A stretch of DNA of 38,039 nt from Candidatus Bilamarchaeaceae archaeon (GTDB lineage: Archaea > Micrarchaeota > Micrarchaeia > Anstonellales > Bilamarchaeaceae), in the NCBI GenBank assembly GCA_038870635.1, contig JAVZJR010000003.1:69204-107242 (forward strand), written 5' to 3'. Below are positions 1,065-9,393 of this stretch, piece after piece. The position numbers were made by a program, and so were the translations under genes. The stretch's first letter is position 1. Every line of letters starts with the position of its first letter. The notes under the pieces are model-generated. The model was not told the origin of the DNA, made no database searches, and saw only the letters and a list, made by a program, of their open reading frames with translations.

Positions 1065-2477
1065 TCAATCTGAAAAATCCATTGTTCTTAATCTACCATA
1101 TTTAAGCTCATAAACAGGCACTTGCCCAGGCGTAGGTATGTGGCCTTGTTTTATTTGATAATCTGTTCTTGCCTGAAAAGTGCCGGAATTTATTAAGACA
1201 ACACCGCGATATTGCGCATAACTGTTCTTATGTACGTGGCCGCAATGAACTACATCTGGTATTTCTTCTACAACCATGTAATCTATATTCTCAGGTACTA
1301 TTAGGTTACTGCCATAGATGGGTGAAAGGTGTCGTCTTTTCATATACTCCACCATAACTTTTTCAGGATTTTTATACGAAGTACCTGGGATATTTGCTAT
1401 AAAAGAATCTATCGATGTGCCGTGATAGATGAGATGTTTTATTCCTTCTATTATTACATATGATGGGCTACCAATTCTTGTTATATCTGATTTTATAAAT
1501 TCTTTTGGAATTGCTGGCATTGGTTCTCCTCTTCTTACCGCATCGTGATTGCCTGGGCATACTATTATGTCGATATAGTCTGGGATGGAAGCTACAAAAT
1601 CATCGAACATTTCATATTGTTTGTATATATCCTTAACAACCAACTCTTTTTCTTGTCCAGGATAAATACCTATTCCATCTACTATATCGCCTGCAACAAC
1701 AATATATTTAATTTTTGAAGCTAGTTTCTTCTCACTTTCATCTCCCTCTCCATGAAGCCATTTAACAAAGCGATCGAGCTGATTTTTAAGAAATTTATTA
1801 CTACCAAAATGAATATCTGAAATATAAGCTACAGCTAAATCATTTTCACTTGTTTTTTTTGTATTCGTTACTGGTATGTCTGGCCATTCAACTTCACTTG
1901 CTATTAGGTATGGCTCCAAAACCTTGCCTGTTATAGCAATCACGTCATCAACACAAATAGTTTCCGCCTTCTTTTTTACGTCGCCAGAAAATACAACTTT
2001 GAAAGAATCATTTAGATCCTCAACCTCAAAAAAGTAATTTCCTGCTTTTGTTTTTCTTTTTTCAGTAACCATTACTATTACTCTGACGTTTTCACCAATG
2101 CTTTTTTTTGCTTTAGAAAGACTCACTGTAGGTATATCTCTTACAGTGTGTTTTAACAACTTGCTCATTCTCTCATAACGATTTCTAAAATATTTTACGA
2201 AGTTTTCTACTTCTCCTTTTGTGCGCGATTTATCCGTGACATCATATTGGTGCAATACTCTTATGTTAGACGGATACTCTTTTGCCTCTGCTAAAAAACC
2301 ACTCGTCCTAACTTCTACTTCTTTTGGTTTTCTTTCAATTATAATTTTTTCAACATCTTCTTTTGTTATGAATGGTTTGTTCAAACTTAGCAATTTTTCT
2401 ATTATCTCTTTATTATTTTTTATTAGTTCTTCTGCCTCGATGGAGACTCTTATTCCACGTGCGGTTAATCTTTCCAT
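1065..2477 (-). CDS. polB: DNA polymerase D small subunit (DP1), calcineurin-like 3'-5' exonuclease
   Basis: OB-fold region followed by SDIHFG, AGDIVDGIGIYPGQ, PGNHD, YHG, RHLSP, GHVH and NSGTFQ motifs; ATG 2477 preferred over the track's TTG 2501, which overlaps the upstream gene. Confidence 0.95.
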   Translation of the reverse strand: MERLTARGIRVSIEAEELIKNNKEIIEKLLSLNKPFITKEDVEKIIIERKPKEVEVRTSGFLAEAKEYPSNIRVLHQYDVTDKSRTKGEVENFVKYFRNRYERMSKLLKHTVRDIPTVSLSKAKKSIGENVRVIVMVTEKRKTKAGNYFFEVEDLNDSFKVVFSGDVKKKAETICVDDVIAITGKVLEPYLIASEVEWPDIPVTNTKKTSENDLAVAYISDIHFGSNKFLKNQLDRFVKWLHGEGDESEKKLASKIKYIVVAGDIVDGIGIYPGQEKELVVKDIYKQYEMFDDFVASIPDYIDIIVCPGNHDAVRRGEPMPAIPKEFIKSDITRIGSPSYVIIEGIKHLIYHGTSIDSFIANIPGTSYKNPEKVMVEYMKRRHLSPIYGSNLIVPENIDYMVVEEIPDVVHCGHVHKNSYAQYRGVVLINSGTFQARTDYQIKQGHIPTPGQVPVYELKYGRLRTMDFSD

Positions 2478-2481
2478 ATTA

Positions 2482-2736
2482 TCATTTTTTAACTGATTCA
2501 AGTGCGCCCATTATTGCCCAAAGCTGTGTTCGAGCGTGAGGTGGCATATTTATGTCATTACTTACTGATTCTATAAGATAAATCGATGCGCTTATCTTTA
2601 CCGAGAGTTCATCATTTCCTTCTATCCTTGTTTTCGCTTCGCTTATTGCCTTCCTAATATTTTTTGGTATAGTCGTATCCTGTAACATCTCTTCCATCAT
2701 ATCATGCACCGCTTTGAGACTTTTCTCGACAGCCAT
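2482..2736 (-). CDS. UPF0147 family protein
   Basis: 84 aa, DTTIPKNIRKA and DINMPPHARTQLW...LES motifs typical of archaeal UPF0147; GGGGTGG RBS. Confidence 0.9.
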   Translation of the reverse strand: MAVEKSLKAVHDMMEEMLQDTTIPKNIRKAISEAKTRIEGNDELSVKISASIYLIESVSNDINMPPHARTQLWAIMGALESVKK

Positions 2737-2932: not shown

Positions 2933-3622
2933 ATGCCCATAAAAGCAATATTGTTTGATTTGGATAATACACTGATAGATTTTTTAACGTTTAAAAAAGA
3001 GAGTGCTAAAGCCGCTGCGAAAGCGATGGTAGCACAAGGACTTCCAGCAAGCGAGATAGAAACTTATAGCAAAATATTCACGGTTTACGATGAAAAAGGT
3101 ATAGAATATCAAAAAACCTTTGCGGATGTTGTTAAGCAATATAATCTTGAAATAAATTTGGCAGAGAAGATACAACAGGCAGCAATAATTGCATATCTAA
3201 AAAAGAAATTTGAAATATTGCGTCCCTACCCTCTAGTAAAATTTACTCTTCAAGCACTTCGTGAGAAAGGTTTTCTTTTAGGTATTGTTACAGATGCGCC
3301 AAGGAATAAAGCATGGCAAAGACTTGTCTTAACTGGGCTTGAAAATGAGTTTGAAGTAGTAATCACAAAAAACGATACAAATGAAGAAAAGCCAGCAGTT
3401 TCTGCTTTTTTGCTTGCAGCAAAAAAATTAGGACTAACTCCCTCTTCTTGTTTGTTTGTTGGTGATAATCCAGCAAAAGATATAAAGGGGGCGAAAGAGG
3501 CAGGTATGATTACTTGTCTTGCAAAATATGGTGTTTGGAATAGAGACAGCGATGTTAAAGCAGATTACGAAATAAATCAGTTTGAGGAATTAATCAAAAT
3601 AATTGAAAAGGTGGAGTCATGA
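2933..3622 (+). CDS. HAD superfamily subfamily IA hydrolase
   Basis: Motif I DLDNTL, motif II VTD, motif III KP, motif IV GDNPAKD. Confidence 0.9.
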   Translation: MPIKAILFDLDNTLIDFLTFKKESAKAAAKAMVAQGLPASEIETYSKIFTVYDEKGIEYQKTFADVVKQYNLEINLAEKIQQAAIIAYLKKKFEILRPYPLVKFTLQALREKGFLLGIVTDAPRNKAWQRLVLTGLENEFEVVITKNDTNEEKPAVSAFLLAAKKLGLTPSSCLFVGDNPAKDIKGAKEAGMITCLAKYGVWNRDSDVKADYEINQFEELIKIIEKVES

Positions 3623-4074
3623 TAGAAGTCGCATTGGAAAAGAGCAGTTATTCACCCGGCGAAGTCATAAATGGAAAGATTATTTTAAACTTTGAAAAAA
3701 AGATAAAAACAAGAGGAATATATGGAACACTGCTTTGCCATGAGAAGAAAAAAATAGTTTCCGTAAGGGAAATGGATTACTACGATTATAATGAGGATAA
3801 AAGCCTGGGTGTCCCACGCTCATCAAACTTAAGAACAACAGTACAATATCGTGATGATATAATCTATAGAGAGGACAAGGTTATCGCACAAGAAGGAACA
3901 TACTTTAAGGAAACATTTCCTTTTAGTTTTTCACTACCAAAAAATGCCGCACCCACAAGCAAAGAGTATGGGCACGACAATAAAATAAATTTTTGGGAAT
4001 TAGAAGTAAAAGTTGACATTCCATTTGCTTTTGATAAAAGAAAAATAATAGAAGTTTTTGTAGAAGGTTTATGA
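3619..4074 (+). CDS. Arrestin-N/SpoOM-like protein
   Basis: LEKSSYSPGEVINGKI...FPFSFSLP..AAPT...WELEVKVDIPFAFD pattern; ATGA overlap with HAD gene. Confidence 0.65.
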   Translation: MIEVALEKSSYSPGEVINGKIILNFEKKIKTRGIYGTLLCHEKKKIVSVREMDYYDYNEDKSLGVPRSSNLRTTVQYRDDIIYREDKVIAQEGTYFKETFPFSFSLPKNAAPTSKEYGHDNKINFWELEVKVDIPFAFDKRKIIEVFVEGL

Positions 4075-4083
4075 GATGATGGG

Positions 4084-5430
4084 ATGGTGGAGATAACTTG
4101 CTATGGAGGTATTAATGAAATAGGAGGTAATAAGTTTTTAGTTGAGAGCAAAAAAACACGCATATTTTTAGATTTTGGCCAATCATTTACTTTGCTTGAT
4201 GAATATTTTGTTCCAGAGGCATATCTTTATCCAAGGGAACGTTTTGGGCTGCGCGACTATTTTGCTTTCGATCTTTTACCTCAACTAAAAGGCCTTTACT
4301 CAAAAGAGGCCATAGAAAGAACTTCTCTTCCATTTTCCCATCCAGAATATGATGGTGTTCTCATCAGCCATGCTCATATAGACCATATTGAGCATCTTAA
4401 ATATCTCCATCCAGAAATACCAATTTATTTAGGCGAGGCAACGAAACTTATAATCGATTCCGCACAGGTTACTTCTTTTAATGGAGTTTCTTACATAAAA
4501 CAGGATACACCTACAATTACTTTTAGGACAGGTAAAGATTTTTCTATAGGTGATTTTAACATTAAACCAATTCATGTAGATCATTCCATACCAGGTGCTT
4601 ATGGCTTTATAATAGAAACCCCTGAAGGAAATATTGTTTATAGTGGAGATTTAAGAAAACACGGTCCTCGTGCTGATATGACCGAAGATTTTTTAAAAAA
4701 AGCAGCAGAGTGTGACCCAATACTATTTATTATAGAAGGAACGCGCGTTGCAGAAAAAGAAAAAAGAAAAAATCATAGCGAGGGTTTTGTGCAACAGGAA
4801 TCTTTACGTATAGCACAAGAGAAAAAAGGACTTATTCTAGCAATGCGTTATCCAAAAGATATCGATAGATTTAGAACTTTTTACAAAGTTGCAAAAGAAA
4901 CAGGAAAAGAATTGGTCATAACACAAAAAACAGCGCATTTGTTATTGTCTTTAAAGAACGACCCAGTTGGTCTTCCTGATCCTTATAATGATAAAACAAT
5001 AAAAATCTACAAACGTGAGAAAAAAGTTTATCAACCTTGGGAAAACCAAATAACTACTAATTGTGTTGATTCAGAATATATATCTAAAAATAAAAACAAC
5101 ATCATTCTCGAACTAGAATTTTCACAGCTTCCAGAACTTATAGATATAAAACCAGATGGAGGTGCCTGTATTCATTCAATGAGCGAGCCTTTTGAGGAAG
5201 ACCCCCTCTCTCAGATTTCAGAAGAAGTTTTGAGAAGATGGGCAAAGAAATTCAATTTAGATTATTATCAACTTCATGCTTCCGGACATGCTTCCATGGG
5301 AGAAATATTTCAGTTTATAGAGCAGGTTAATCCTGAAAGAGTCTTACCTGTACATACAACAGGTGCCCATCTTTTTAAATGCGAAAACGTTCTCTTACCA
5401 CTAAAAGGACAGACTATCTCTCTCGATTGA
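4084..5430 (+). CDS. RNase J-like metallo-beta-lactamase/beta-CASP hydrolase
   Basis: GGINEIGGN, LDFG, SHAHIDH, VDHSIPGA, SGDLRKHG, EGT and HASGH motifs. Confidence 0.85.
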   Translation: MVEITCYGGINEIGGNKFLVESKKTRIFLDFGQSFTLLDEYFVPEAYLYPRERFGLRDYFAFDLLPQLKGLYSKEAIERTSLPFSHPEYDGVLISHAHIDHIEHLKYLHPEIPIYLGEATKLIIDSAQVTSFNGVSYIKQDTPTITFRTGKDFSIGDFNIKPIHVDHSIPGAYGFIIETPEGNIVYSGDLRKHGPRADMTEDFLKKAAECDPILFIIEGTRVAEKEKRKNHSEGFVQQESLRIAQEKKGLILAMRYPKDIDRFRTFYKVAKETGKELVITQKTAHLLLSLKNDPVGLPDPYNDKTIKIYKREKKVYQPWENQITTNCVDSEYISKNKNNIILELEFSQLPELIDIKPDGGACIHSMSEPFEEDPLSQISEEVLRRWAKKFNLDYYQLHASGHASMGEIFQFIEQVNPERVLPVHTTGAHLFKCENVLLPLKGQTISLD

Positions 5431-5498: not shown

Positions 5499-5560
5499 AA
5501 TTTTATTATGCATAATTTAAAATTAAAACTTATGTTTTTGACGAAATCTGCGAAGAGTAG

Positions 5561-5575
5561 GAGAAGCTTTATATA
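5561..5575 (+). promoter_or_regulatory. BRE/TATA promoter of the small Zn-ribbon gene
   Basis: GAGAAGC followed by TTTATATA (5568-5575), 37 nt before ATG 5612; GGGTG RBS at 5602-5606. Confidence 0.55.
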
Positions 5576-5611
5576 TTTTTTTTAAGAAAAACAAACGGAA
5601 AGGGTGTGTTG

Positions 5612-5734
5612 ATGGAGCTCACTGAGCAAGAAAAAATAAAAAATGGAATCTGTCCTTCCTGTGGTGCTAATCTTGTTTTTCAAGAAGGTTGTATGACTTG
5701 TATGCAGTGCGGTTGGGGCGCTTGCGACGGTTAA
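5612..5734 (+). CDS. 40-aa stand-alone Cys-rich zinc ribbon resembling the class II ribonucleotide reductase (NrdJ) C-terminal tail
   Basis: MELTEQEKIKNGICPSCGANLVFQEGCMTCMQCGWGACDG*; RBS and TATA upstream; in-frame stop at 5558-5560; not in ORF track. Confidence 0.85.
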   Translation: MELTEQEKIKNGICPSCGANLVFQEGCMTCMQCGWGACDG

Positions 5735-6390
5735 TTTTTTACCTCTTGTTGTTTTTCTTTTTGTTCTTCCACTTTTAGCGTTTCTGTTTTTGGTATATTT
5801 GTTTCCGTTATTACTTTCACTACCTCCTCTTCTGACAAGAAAATGTAGTTTGCATTTTTTAATTTTTTATAAAATTTGTATTGATTCTCTAAAGAAGGAG
5901 GAGTTTCAAAGAAATTTCCTATCCCTTCGAACATACCATACCAGCCAGCTGGTACTAATAGTATCTCTACCAATCTTATGAAATAATTTGTACCATCGTA
6001 AAAGGTGCTCAAGTACATCTGAGTGGCGAGTAGCGTAAAACCAACAGCAATGTATACCAATCCCTTCTTTCTCTTTTTTTGTAATTCATACTCTGTGTTT
6101 TTCAATAATTGTGCAAAATAATCCTTTATTCTTTTTTTTATGAGTGCTTCTGTTTTTGGATTTCTTTGGGCATTTGGGATAGTAAATCTAACTTCGAATT
6201 CTCCTTTTTGCCTTTCGCTGTATTTTTTTTGAACTTCTTTTAAAAAATCATCTGAGAGTATTCTTGTTGAATACGGCGAAGGGTCAAAATCTGAAAATAT
6301 ATCGTCATAAGTGTCTAATGCTATGTTGACAAGATTAAGAAAGGTTGCTGGCTTTTTTTCGTCCTCTGCCACCATTTTTTCTATTTCCAT
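5731..6390 (-). CDS. Hypothetical membrane protein (2 TM)
   Basis: 219 aa; acidic LDTYDDIFSDFDP motif, two hydrophobic helices near residues 110-160. Confidence 0.8.
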   Translation of the reverse strand: MEIEKMVAEDEKKPATFLNLVNIALDTYDDIFSDFDPSPYSTRILSDDFLKEVQKKYSERQKGEFEVRFTIPNAQRNPKTEALIKKRIKDYFAQLLKNTEYELQKKRKKGLVYIAVGFTLLATQMYLSTFYDGTNYFIRLVEILLVPAGWYGMFEGIGNFFETPPSLENQYKFYKKLKNANYIFLSEEEVVKVITETNIPKTETLKVEEQKEKQQEVKN

Positions 6391-6417: not shown

Positions 6418-7653
6418 TTAAGACCTTATTGGATCTTGACCATCAACACATATGCAATTTTTGCCTGATTTTTTTCCTCTATAAAGTTGGTCGTCTGCTG
6501 CTTTTATCAATCGTTCTATTATCTCGTCATCGATTTTTTCTATATCCCCAACCACTTTTTTTAAGCTTGAAACTCCAAAGGTGCAGCTAACTTTTAGGAT
6601 GCCTCCTATTCCTAAGTCTATTGCAATGTTGTTTATTAAATCTCTGAATCTTTTTGCGCACTGCACTGCACCGTCAAGATTGGTCATAACTAAATGTAAA
6701 AACTCTTCGCCACCCCATCTTGCTAAGAAATCGGGGTAGACATTTCCTCTTTCCTTATCATCTCTTTTTTTTCTCGTACTCTCAAATATCCGTCTACTTA
6801 TTGTTTCTAATACTAAATCCCCTGTAAGATGACCGTAAGTGTCGTTTATTTGCTTAAAATTATCTATGTCAAACATTATCAGGGCGAAATCATCTATTTT
6901 TTTGCTATTGTATAGACTTATAGTTGCTTTTAGTTGTTCATCTATAGCTATTCTCGTTGGTAAGTTAGTTAATGGGTCAAAATTTTCTACTATCCTTGAA
7001 ACACCGCTTGAGAGCGTAGATATGAGGAGCATTGTTTCCCTTATAGCTTCCTCGCCGGAAAGATTGGAACCACGTATAGTGAGATCATTGCCAGTTATGG
7101 TCCAAACACCAAGCTTTCTTGGTTCTGTATAGAAATTTTTAGTATATATTGGTGATATTATTTTTTGATTTTTTATATCGACAGGCAAATCAATATTTTT
7201 TTCAGCTTCGTAATCACCTATTTTTGTGTTGTATATTTTCATCTTTTTTTTATCTATAAATATAAACGCCATTTCATTATCAATAGCCGCAACTTGGGGT
7301 ACGATGAGTGCTTTTTGTTTTAAATCGATAGTTTCATAAATTCTTAGGTCATAATCGCGTTCTTCCGCTACTTTTTCACATTCATTTAAGTTTTGCTTTA
7401 CTGTTATAAAATGAATTAATTTATTTTTTATATAAAAATGCAAAGAAGAACTTTGGGGCTCCTTAAGATGAGAAAGTACCAATTCTAAATAACATTCAAA
7501 ATCTTTGAAGTTTGTATTTTGGGCTCGACAAAGAGAATATATTGTCATTGCATATGCCGGTGATACGAGCACTTCTTCCACTAGAGGCGTATTATTTTTT
7601 TCTTTTTGTGGGATGTTTTTAAGTGGCCCACCATTATTTTTTAAGTTATGCAT
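6418..7653 (-). CDS. GGDEF-domain diguanylate cyclase with N-terminal GAF-like region
   Basis: DPLTNLP, FDIDNFKQINDTYGHLTGD, ARWGGEEF, SCTFGVS and ADDQLYRGKKSGKN motifs. Confidence 0.92.
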   Translation of the reverse strand: MHNLKNNGGPLKNIPQKEKNNTPLVEEVLVSPAYAMTIYSLCRAQNTNFKDFECYLELVLSHLKEPQSSSLHFYIKNKLIHFITVKQNLNECEKVAEERDYDLRIYETIDLKQKALIVPQVAAIDNEMAFIFIDKKKMKIYNTKIGDYEAEKNIDLPVDIKNQKIISPIYTKNFYTEPRKLGVWTITGNDLTIRGSNLSGEEAIRETMLLISTLSSGVSRIVENFDPLTNLPTRIAIDEQLKATISLYNSKKIDDFALIMFDIDNFKQINDTYGHLTGDLVLETISRRIFESTRKKRDDKERGNVYPDFLARWGGEEFLHLVMTNLDGAVQCAKRFRDLINNIAIDLGIGGILKVSCTFGVSSLKKVVGDIEKIDDEIIERLIKAADDQLYRGKKSGKNCICVDGQDPIRS

Positions 7654-7872: not shown

Positions 7873-9393
7873 ATGCGTAAGAAAAACCACACAATAGATT
7901 ACCTCATATTGTTTTTTTTGCTTTTAACCTGTTTAGGTGGTTTTGCAGTTAGCATAACAACACTTTTTATTTTGCCTTACTTTGTAAGCGAGTACTCTGT
8001 AATAAAAAGTTATGACTCCTTAGAGCGAATAGATGGTCTTACTATTGCAACTGCTGATCCACAACCAGATATTATGTATGCATACAACTCACCTGTGGTT
8101 GTGCCTATTGTGATACAAAAGCCGAATATAAAAAATGACCATTTAGTAAAACTCGTAATAAGCGAGAATAACAAGTTAATTAAAGAAATTGAATGCATTC
8201 CAGCAGATTTATCACAAGAAAAAATGATATGTAATGCTTCTTTTCCATATACTTATGCACCAAATTCTAAAATGGAAGTAAGGGCTGTTTTAGAGTTGTT
8301 TGATGGCAAACGATTTGTTAGCAATAAGATTCCACTTACCTATGATTGGGCAAATTATGAGAAAGGTTTCAGAAACATATCAAGCTCGCTTTTAATAATT
8401 ATAATCCTTGGCTTTCTTCTTCTTATTCTACCCCTTAGTGCAATGATGTATCATCTTACTACTTTAGAAAAGCATCACGCAATATATAAGGGTGAGTACA
8501 CTCTACAAAGTCTTCTTCAACCTTTTAGATATGTAAAAACAAAAGAGCAATTTTTTCAAGCTTTTATTTCTTCACCTCTTTTTTGGTTTATTGAATTTAT
8601 AGGAGCATTCCTTCTAATCATATACTATGCGTTATCTGCAGACGTGTTTAAATCTGATACCTCGTTAGTCGCATTTTTAATAAGCGGTGGTTTTGCTTTT
8701 TTTGTGCCTTTTCTTTGGGTTGCGGTTTGGTGGTTAGCGGACTACAAAGAAAGGGAGCCGTTGAGAATAATAATTTCACTTTTTTTATGGGGCGCGTTCT
8801 GTTGTATTATATCTATAGGTATTAATACAATAGCAGAAGCATTTTTTGTAGTGCTTGGTTTAAGTTTGATAAGCTCGATGATCTTTCCTCCTTTGGTTGA
8901 GGAGTTTTTTAAAGGAACAGGACTTGCAATTTTTTCACTTCACCATGACTATTCAAGCATCGGTGATGGTTTAGTATATGGCTTCACTATAGGAATGGGT
9001 TTTGCTTTTATGGAAAACTGGCTCTATCTTTTAGATAATCCAATGGGTGCTGATATTACTATGTGGGCTTCACTTTTTTTCTTGCGTGCAGTGCTGTTTT
9101 CTGCAATGCATGGGGTGTATACAGCTGTAACAGGCGCACTGATAGGTTATCTAAAAACAATTGGCAAGCCACAAATTCTCCTATTCGGTTTTACTCTAAT
9201 CCCTGCAATTTTTTTACATTCTATCCATAATTCAGTAGATATCTTGTCTGCTATTTTTGGTGACATTGGGGTTTTGGCTTATTGTTGTGTTGTTGGACCT
9301 CTTTTTGACTATGGCGGTCTTTTTGTAATAGCTGTTCTTATGTTAGCTTGGTTAAATCTATCGAGCAAAAGCAGAAAAAATAAAAGTATTTAA
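7873..9393 (+). CDS. PrsW-family intramembrane glutamic protease with N-terminal extracytoplasmic domain
   Basis: D..EREP, PPLVEEFFKG, GFAFMEN, H(GVYT) and LHSIHN motifs; many TM helices. Confidence 0.88.
   Translation: MRKKNHTIDYLILFFLLLTCLGGFAVSITTLFILPYFVSEYSVIKSYDSLERIDGLTIATADPQPDIMYAYNSPVVVPIVIQKPNIKNDHLVKLVISENNKLIKEIECIPADLSQEKMICNASFPYTYAPNSKMEVRAVLELFDGKRFVSNKIPLTYDWANYEKGFRNISSSLLIIIILGFLLLILPLSAMMYHLTTLEKHHAIYKGEYTLQSLLQPFRYVKTKEQFFQAFISSPLFWFIEFIGAFLLIIYYALSADVFKSDTSLVAFLISGGFAFFVPFLWVAVWWLADYKEREPLRIIISLFLWGAFCCIISIGINTIAEAFFVVLGLSLISSMIFPPLVEEFFKGTGLAIFSLHHDYSSIGDGLVYGFTIGMGFAFMENWLYLLDNPMGADITMWASLFFLRAVLFSAMHGVYTAVTGALIGYLKTIGKPQILLFGFTLIPAIFLHSIHNSVDILSAIFGDIGVLAYCCVVGPLFDYGGLFVIAVLMLAWLNLSSKSRKNKSI

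What the first reader, a model, noticed from the sequence alone, without database searches (positions are those of the whole stretch)
5612..5734. Stand-alone 40-aa NrdJ-type C-terminal Cys-rich tail with its own promoter
Seen: an unannotated ORF with CPSCG-x5-QEGC-x2-C-x2-CGWGAC, a TATA box, an RBS and an in-frame stop 54 nt upstream, so it is not the end of a longer gene. No ribonucleotide reductase is in the window. Established: CPxCG...EGCxxCxxCG[YW]SxC is the zinc-binding, redox-shuttling C-terminus of many class II (B12-dependent) RNRs, and split NrdJa/NrdJb enzymes exist. Inference: a minimal trans-acting re-reduction subunit for a tail-less NrdJ encoded elsewhere, or a free redox/Zn microprotein.
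Basis: partly seen in the sequence, partly recalled or inferred. Interest (0 to 1): 0.7.

Follow-up and report, generated by a model that had tools for sequence, protein, structure and literature searches.

The report
Free recharging subunit of ribonucleotide reductase
In one family of small-genome archaea, the enzyme that makes DNA building blocks has lost the cysteine tail it needs to recharge itself, and that tail is encoded instead by a separate 40-residue gene elsewhere in the genome, which is lost whenever the tail-less enzyme is lost or replaced.

Summary
The ORF is real: a 40-aa gene with six invariant cysteines, the same array as the zinc finger ending class II ribonucleotide reductase (NrdJ). 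The genome (Micrarchaeota, 89.6% complete) holds one RNR, an NrdJ with no cysteine after the barrel, no TSCPD domain, and a second unlinked ribbon gene. Of 115 genomes of the order, 55 of 57 with a Cys-free NrdJ tail have the free ribbon; 0 of 28 with a fused tail and 0 of 7 with NrdJa/NrdJb do. In a genus that also has class III RNR, five genomes without NrdJ lack both ribbon genes, in four as clean deletions between joined flanks. On a species tree about 5 of 6 independent pairs agree and none oppose (p=0.06). Co-folding gave only weak support (0.42 versus control 0.03). Best reading: a minimal, unlinked, trans-acting re-reduction subunit, NrdJb reduced to its zinc finger. Binding, zinc and redox activity are untested. 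The scan earlier noted free NrdJ-type ribbons in other lineages (mostly DNA-damage contexts), and phages carry RNR-unlinked copies, so other roles remain possible. I found no paper describing this arrangement.

The parts
5612..5734 (+). 40-aa stand-alone six-cysteine zinc ribbon ('type A'): short N-terminal helix (residues 5-10), predicted Zn ligands C14/C17/C30/C33 and predicted redox pair C27/C38
   Evidence: Cys roles inferred by alignment of spacing with S. nassauensis C920/923/933/936/939/945 (PMC5704485)
5558..5560 (+). In-frame TAG 54 nt upstream; rules out the ORF being the end of a longer gene
5560..5579 (+). Purine-rich stretch plus TATA box (BRE/TATA-like archaeal promoter)
   Evidence: same box at the same place in genus relatives; TTTATA in 34 of 66 upstream regions vs 41 of 227 controls; not shown to be active
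5602..5606 (+). GGGTG ribosome-binding-site-like motif
   Evidence: GGTG-type motifs precede the start in many relatives; sequence match only
5731..6390 (-). Convergent neighbour (219 aa, no Pfam family above cut-off) whose stop overlaps the ribbon's stop; not part of the system
   Evidence: neighbours vary across relatives
4084..5430 (+). Upstream metallo-beta-lactamase-fold (RNase J-like) gene ending 181 nt before the ribbon; not part of the system

Best explanation
The peptide is the detached C-terminal zinc finger of the cell's only ribonucleotide reductase and works in trans as its re-reduction subunit. SHOWN: homology, the Cys-free NrdJ tail, co-occurrence and co-deletion. INFERRED from PMC5704485 and PMC4520616: after each turnover NrdJ holds an active-site disulfide (C196/C389 flanking the radical Cys C378). 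The peptide binds Zn with C14/C17/C30/C33, which positions C27 and C38 as a dithiol. It docks at the active-site cleft, takes over the disulfide, and is recharged by a cellular thiol system; thioredoxin reductase, a CSRC thioredoxin-family protein and a CPHC oxidoreductase are encoded, but the donor is unknown. INFERRED origin: fission of an NrdJ with a short linker plus ribbon and no TSCPD domain, followed by duplication into types A and B, with the conserved N-terminal helix possibly replacing the tether.
For: G000's single RNR is a class II NrdJ (TIGR02504 above cut-off) with Cys only at 196, 378, 389 and 660 and none in its last 28 residues. No TSCPD and no class III RNR were found. On PRK08665 the NrdJ covers positions 8-590 and the peptide 724-758. 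Order survey of 115 genomes, 95 tails read: free ribbon in 55 of 57 with a short Cys-free tail, 0 of 28 with a fused six-Cys tail, 0 of 7 with NrdJa plus adjacent NrdJb, 0 of 3 others. Genus g12: all 7 have NrdD; the 5 without NrdJ lack both ribbons. In 4 of these 5 both unlinked loci are deleted between joined flanks, with different junctions and 3'-end remnants in G017 and G090. The gene upstream of type B is kept where NrdJ was replaced but the ribbon behind it is gone (G007, G107, G010, G013, G015). RpoA' tree: 6 well-supported independent pairs, on average 4.8 agree, 0 oppose. Outside this clade the best matches are NrdJ C-termini (77 of 80 viral loci hold an RNR gene). Co-folding: weak support, 0.42 versus best control 0.03; contacts agree in at least 64%, partner pLDDT at least 67. 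The mark was reached by 116 of 157 solved and 2 of 215 mismatched pairs, but at 0.60 or under by only 18 solved pairs and both mismatches. No PDB RNR chain matches the ribbon profile at E<=1, so recall of a solved complex is unlikely. Precedent for transfer between chains: PMC5704485 and PMC4520616.
Against: No biochemistry exists. The tree test does not reach significance (p=0.0625) and most positive genomes belong to one family. G014 (89% complete) has an intact tail-less NrdJ and no ribbon; G103 (86%, 200 contigs) has only a frameshifted type B. G021 and G027 (71% and 75% complete, outside the 115) are also tail-less without a ribbon. G109 has a ribbon and no RNR, though its contig ends just before the expected nrdJ site. 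G092 keeps both ribbons while its nrdJ carries a frameshift. The ribbon is never next to nrdJ (0 of 67 loci). Reconstitution of truncated NrdJd with separately made CRD gave no TCEP activity in PMC5704485, though that CRD aggregated. RNR-unlinked free ribbons exist in phages (18 of 30 loci). The co-folding pass is of the kind the tool calls more often wrong than right unless the guess was likely beforehand.
Confidence: 0.76

Rival explanations
1. The peptide is a general small redox or zinc carrier, for example in DNA replication or repair, that descends from the NrdJ tail and serves other or several enzymes; NrdJ is at most one client.
For: Free copies without an RNR nearby occur in phage contigs (18 of 30 loci, many from one sample), one fused to a DNA methylase. 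Earlier scan notes report free copies behind LexA boxes, next to mcm or a radical-SAM gene in other lineages (unchecked AI notes). 34 of 67 type-A loci lie within 5 kb of the PolD large subunit gene. 40 of 57 genomes keep two or three copies.
Against: A carrier with other essential clients should survive loss of NrdJ, yet both copies are deleted when NrdJ is lost or replaced. The extended promoter pattern is not specific: 15 of 363 G000 genes have it and the window's own gene does not.
Confidence: 0.11
2. The peptide binds NrdJ but acts as a regulator or structural factor (oligomerisation, shielding the cofactor cleft, or inhibition), while the active-site disulfide is reduced directly by a small thiol or a redoxin.
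For: The fused CRD also drives oligomerisation and effector affinity (PMC5704485). This fits the co-loss and the weak co-folding equally well. Exceptions G014 and G103 would be tolerated.
Against: C27 and C38, which are not predicted Zn ligands, are invariant in 119 of 119 sequences. The 150-220-aa CRD studied for oligomerisation includes the TSCPD/IscU-like part, which is absent here (PMC9669993).
Confidence: 0.09
3. It is a transcription- or ribosome-type zinc ribbon (TFS, RpoP, S27, HVO_ family) or a decaying remnant, and its distribution only mirrors ancestry.
For: The fold is a generic zinc ribbon; the best, non-significant structural hits are TFS4, NudC and RNA polymerase subunits. Most carriers are kin.
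Against: 27 of 27 members hit NrdJ PRK08665 and only 2 hit any other family at E<=0.001. Purifying selection. Losses nested inside the family coincide with loss of tail-less NrdJ.
Confidence: 0.04

Closest known systems
NrdJb of split class II RNR NrdJa/NrdJb (Pseudomonas aeruginosa; PMC4520616, passages read)
   Same: A separate chain carries the C-terminal cysteines while the catalytic chain has none; thiol-disulfide exchange in trans.
   Different: NrdJb is 229 aa, includes the TSCPD/IscU-like domain and is in an operon with nrdJa, whose C-terminus has an extra folded part. Here the chain is 40 aa, zinc finger only, unlinked, usually in two paralogues, and the NrdJ ends in a 17-47-aa stub. 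Canonical NrdJa/b also occurs in this order (7 genomes) and is a different NrdJ lineage.
C-terminal six-Cys zinc finger of the NrdJ cysteine-rich domain (S. nassauensis NrdJd; PMC5704485, parts 1-4 of 6 read)
   Same: Same six-Cys array with two CxxC pairs plus an extra pair; best profile match to PRK08665 positions 724-758.
   Different: Fused there and part of a 150-220-aa domain; free here.
Fused short-tail NrdJ of other Micrarchaeota (G139/G140, G043, G216)
   Same: Barrel, linker and ribbon without TSCPD; they fall in the sister group of the tail-less clade.
   Different: Ribbon still tethered by a 40-100-aa linker.
Generic zinc ribbons (TFS4, TFIIB, RpoP, S27ae, HVO_0416/HVO_2142)
   Same: Zinc-ribbon fold.
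   Different: Weak matches only (E 0.004 or worse for the window peptide); that they lack the extra Cys pair is recalled, not tested.

Membership tests
NrdJ C-terminal six-Cys zinc finger | Six conserved Cys: CxxC, C, CxxC, terminal C | tested here: met
   C14, C17, C27, C30, C33, C38 invariant in 119 of 119 rows
NrdJ C-terminal six-Cys zinc finger | Sequence homology to the end of NrdJ | tested here: met
   PRK08665 724-758/759, E 1.3e-7; 27 of 27 members
NrdJ C-terminal six-Cys zinc finger | Zinc-ribbon fold | tested here: met
   AF2 model, mean pLDDT 90.7, helix plus three strands; only ribbon-type, non-significant PDB hits
NrdJ C-terminal six-Cys zinc finger | Binds Zn and passes electrons to the active site | not testable with these tools
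   Needs ICP and TCEP/DTT assays
NrdJb (split class II RNR) | Separate gene from a catalytic chain that lacks C-terminal cysteines | tested here: met
NrdJb (split class II RNR) | Contains the TSCPD/IscU-like domain, about 200-240 aa | tested here: not met
   40 aa; no PF12637 match in G000
NrdJb (split class II RNR) | Operon with nrdJa | tested here: not met
   Different contigs in G000; no RNR within 5 kb in 0 of 67 loci
NrdJb (split class II RNR) | Forms a complex with the catalytic chain | tested here: inconclusive
   Weak support, 0.42 vs best control 0.03
Transcription/ribosomal zinc ribbons (TFS, TFIIB, RpoP, S27ae) | Profile match above family cut-off | tested here: not met
   All far below cut-off

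The most novel reading that the evidence does not exclude
The free ribbon is a diffusible, RNR-dedicated redoxin of a new type: a 40-aa zinc-scaffolded dithiol that cycles between the electron source and NrdJ, letting the cell set dNTP supply through a tiny separately promoted gene, with two paralogues for different conditions. The same module released in other archaea, bacteria and phages would then be a recurrent way to boost or tune host class II RNR in trans, and could account for part of the Cys-free class II tails that NrdJa/b does not explain.
Probability: 0.3. Interest if true: 0.8.

Novelty: new variant of a known kind. Interest (0 to 1): 0.62.

Why it matters
PMC9669993 (section 2.4) reports that 26% of class II RNR C-termini without a zinc finger have no cysteine at all and that NrdJa/NrdJb explains only about 40% of those; how the rest are recharged is open. 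This gives a concrete answer for one archaeal clade: look for an unlinked 35-60-aa gene that public records call hypothetical. It also offers a natural minimal form of a domain that was aggregation-prone in earlier work, which makes two open points testable: whether the zinc finger alone suffices for re-reduction, and what its physiological electron donor is (not found in PMC5704485). The nested co-deletion of two unlinked microgenes with their enzyme is unusually clean genomic evidence for a microprotein's function.

Tried and rejected
Gene neighbourhood with nrdJ: none (0 of 67 loci). A third TSCPD part in G000: not found. The ~120-aa gene upstream of type B as part of the system: rejected, it is kept in genomes without ribbon or tail-less NrdJ and has no Pfam or PDB match. 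A shared operator for nrdJ and the ribbon: an extended BRE/TATA pattern drawn by eye from type-A loci is in 25 of 66 of them, 4 of 17 nrdJ and 4 of 227 control upstream regions, but also in 15 of 363 varied G000 genes and not in the window's gene; read as a strong promoter, not a regulon. ESM Atlas: only unnamed clusters. Structure search of the ribbon: no hit at E<=0.001. A bacterial class survey (26 genomes) found only fused ribbons; the Thermoanaerobacter and Mahella stand-alone proteins could not be placed in their genomes. The careful species tree and the AU test did not finish, so only the quick tree is cited. The Fisher test ignores kinship and is not used. Hidden ribbons in G014, G103, G021, G027: a motif search found none. 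Literature: 8 searches found no description of a zinc-finger-only NrdJ partner; subscription papers, the RNRdb website and the supplements of the papers read were not seen.

Full report
OBSERVATION. The ORF at 5612-5734 (+) is as described: 40 aa, motif CPSCG-x5-QEGC-x2-C-x2-CGWGAC, in-frame TAG at 5558-5560, TATA box at 5568-5575, GGGTG at 5602-5606. Its stop overlaps that of a convergent gene; the upstream RNase J-like gene ends 181 nt earlier. The six-Cys spacing occurs twice in the genome and never in 10 codon-shuffled copies. The best family match is the last 35 positions of the B12-dependent RNR model PRK08665 (E 1.3e-7; next family E 0.004), and 27 of 27 aligned homologues hit that model. 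It is a gene: six Cys invariant in 119 rows, Met exactly 11 residues before the first Cys in 41 of 67 loci, 14 silent versus 5 replacement codon differences to the nearest relative. AlphaFold2 gives a zinc ribbon with a short N-terminal helix (mean pLDDT 90.7); no PDB structure matches at E<=0.001.

THE GENOME. Record titles of the closest loci are Candidatus Micrarchaeota, some Bilamarchaeaceae. G000 (859 kb, 89.6% complete) has one RNR, C4:94527-96623: ATP cone plus barrel, 698 aa, above the cut-off of TIGR02504. Its cysteines are 196, 378 (NPCGE), 389 and 660; the 28 residues after the last conserved motif have none. No TSCPD domain and no class III RNR were found. A second free ribbon ('type B') lies on C1 behind a conserved ~120-aa gene. 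Thioredoxin reductase, a 75-aa CSRC protein and a CPHC oxidoreductase 2.3 kb from nrdJ are present.

DISTRIBUTION. I searched all 115 genomes of the order at 85% completeness or more. The ribbon profile hit 62: 57 as free genes, 2 as fused NrdJ tails, 2 as NrdJb and 1 as a cut tail fragment. The NrdJ C-terminal region was found in 97; tails were read for 95, G078 and G046 being cut by contig ends and not fetched. Free ribbons occur in 55 of 57 genomes with a short Cys-free tail, 0 of 28 with a fused six-Cys tail, 0 of 7 with NrdJa plus adjacent NrdJb, and 0 of 3 others. The other two carriers are G078 (nrdJ cut) and G109 (no RNR assembled; its contig ends inside the gene that precedes nrdJ in a relative). 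Carriers have one (17), two (37) or three (3) copies. In a phylum-wide search (311 genomes, 194 with a match) the listed matches outside this clade end 752-1205-aa frames, but 122 weaker matches were not listed, so free copies elsewhere are not excluded.

CO-LOSS. On an RpoA' tree of 59 genomes both traits change 8 times; of 6 independent pairs on well-supported branches 4.8 on average agree and none oppose (sign test p=0.0625; quick tree only). The DNA is more telling. All 7 genomes of genus g12 have class III NrdD, which makes NrdJ dispensable (inference). G092 and G094 keep nrdJ and both ribbons; the other five have no PF02867 match and no ribbon. The nrdJ flanks are on one contig and closer together in G089, G090, G091 and G093; G017 has a contig break. 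At the type-A locus the flanks are joined in G017, G090, G089 and G093 with gaps of 2, 1, 33 and 62 bp where G092 has 242-322 bp; G091 has 2.6 kb without a ribbon. The type-B gene is likewise cut out in those four, its upstream neighbour intact. G017 and G090 keep different few-codon remnants of the 3' ends, and G092 is sister to G017, which points to repeated deletions, though regain in G092 is not excluded. Where a fused NrdJ or a class-I-like enzyme replaced the tail-less one inside the family (G007, G107, G010, G013, G015), the upstream neighbour also stands without its ribbon.

EXCEPTIONS. G014 has an intact tail-less NrdJ, no NrdD and no ribbon; the type-B neighbour gene is missing from that assembly too. 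G103 has only a frameshifted type B near a contig end. G021 and G027 (71% and 75% complete) are tail-less without a ribbon; G027's NrdJ falls outside the tail-less clade. G092's nrdJ has one frameshift, an error or early decay.

ORIGIN. Tail-less NrdJs form one clade (20 rows, SH-aLRT 100) whose sister group holds NrdJs with linker and ribbon, among them TSCPD-free ones from other Micrarchaeota such as G139/G140 (quick tree, not AU-tested). Fission of such a gene is the simplest reading (inference). The TSCPD-fused and NrdJa/b enzymes of the same order are distant lineages.

MECHANISM. In S. nassauensis NrdJd four Cys bind Zn, two are proposed as the redox pair, all six are needed for TCEP-driven turnover, and electrons can pass between subunits; thioredoxins and glutaredoxin did not serve as donors, and separately made CRD aggregated and did not complement (PMC5704485, parts 1-4 of 6). 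In P. aeruginosa the separate NrdJb does the disulfide exchange and is essential in vivo (PMC4520616, passages). By spacing, C14/C17/C30/C33 are the Zn ligands and C27/C38 the redox pair; C27 and C38 lie on neighbouring strands in the model. Co-folding of NrdJ 100-698, the peptide and Zn gave weak support: 0.42 against a best control of 0.03, contacts agreeing in at least 64%, partner pLDDT at least 67, no interface given. The mark was reached by 116 of 157 solved and 2 of 215 mismatched pairs, but at 0.60 or under by only 18 solved pairs and both mismatches. No PDB RNR chain matches the ribbon profile. I put the trans-acting re-reduction subunit at about 0.76.

RIVALS. Free homologues also exist without an RNR nearby: 18 of 30 phage loci found with a second sub-type, many from one sample, one fused to a DNA methylase, while 77 of 80 viral loci found with the type-A profile do hold an RNR gene. 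Earlier notes of this scan describe free copies under LexA control or near mcm, PolB2 or a radical-SAM gene in other lineages (unchecked here). Type A lies near the PolD large subunit gene in 34 of 67 loci, partly through kinship. These keep a general carrier role (0.11) or a regulatory role on NrdJ (0.09) alive. No specific operator was found.

NOVELTY. It works like NrdJb but is not a member: no TSCPD domain, no operon, 40 aa instead of about 230. Eight literature searches found no such arrangement; public protein records mostly call the homologues hypothetical. PMC9669993 section 2.4 leaves about 60% of Cys-free class II tails unexplained, the gap this fills for one clade. The scan has found free ribbons before on other DNA; its look-ups by this sequence, by this genome and for Micrarchaeota with tail-less NrdJ returned nothing. 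Verdict: new variant of a known kind, interest 0.62.

Noticed in passing
G000 C1:99339-99458 (-), locus L003:1492-1611: Second free six-Cys ribbon (type B, H-x-EGC and W-S-x-C pattern) directly behind a conserved ~120-aa gene; lost several times in genomes that keep type A and tail-less NrdJ.
   Followed up: yes
L003:1619-1984 (-): Conserved all-helical ~120-aa protein (65 of 115 genomes, families f1 and f9) with no Pfam or PDB match; function unknown and independent of the RNR state.
   Followed up: partly
G089, G090, G017, G093, G092, G094: The class III RNR match is in two frames: the last ~30 profile positions lie in a separate 52-77-aa frame just downstream in 6 of 7 genus g12 genomes, and in one 765-aa frame in G091. 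A possible second split RNR.
   Followed up: no
L474-L482, L485, L486, L489-L493, L498, L499: Phage contigs with stand-alone HESGC-type ribbons among replication and methylase genes, no RNR within the locus; two copies in L480 and L485, one fused to the end of a DNA methylase (L485:7116-8084).
   Followed up: partly
P0367, P0373: Stand-alone ribbons annotated as hypothetical proteins in Thermoanaerobacter sp. YS13 and Mahella australiensis, both cultured bacteria; genomic context not seen.
   Followed up: partly
L115, L128: Contigs filed under a Desulfobulbaceae and a Pirellulales genome carry type-A ribbons; L128 also has a PolD large subunit gene, so they look like mis-binned Micrarchaeota contigs.
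   Followed up: partly
L015 (G027) and L010 (G034): G027 has a separately derived Cys-free NrdJ behind an NrdR-like gene (name from recalled motif) with no ribbon found; G034's NrdJ ends in a 12-aa tail with a single CxxC.
   Followed up: partly
window 6418-7653 (-): GGDEF (diguanylate cyclase) domain protein in an archaeal genome (PF00990, E 4e-32).
   Followed up: no
window 3619-4074 (+) and 7873-9393 (+): Arrestin-N-fold protein (PF00339) and a PrsW-family membrane protease (PF13367).
   Followed up: no
window 1065-2501 (-): PolD small-subunit-like gene 3.1 kb from the ribbon; in 34 of 67 related loci the PolD large subunit gene lies within 5 kb, mostly divergent.
   Followed up: partly
L244:4794-5108, L283:4917-5108: Viral proteins with an extra zinc-binding-like motif in front of the six-Cys ribbon, no RNR nearby.
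   Followed up: no
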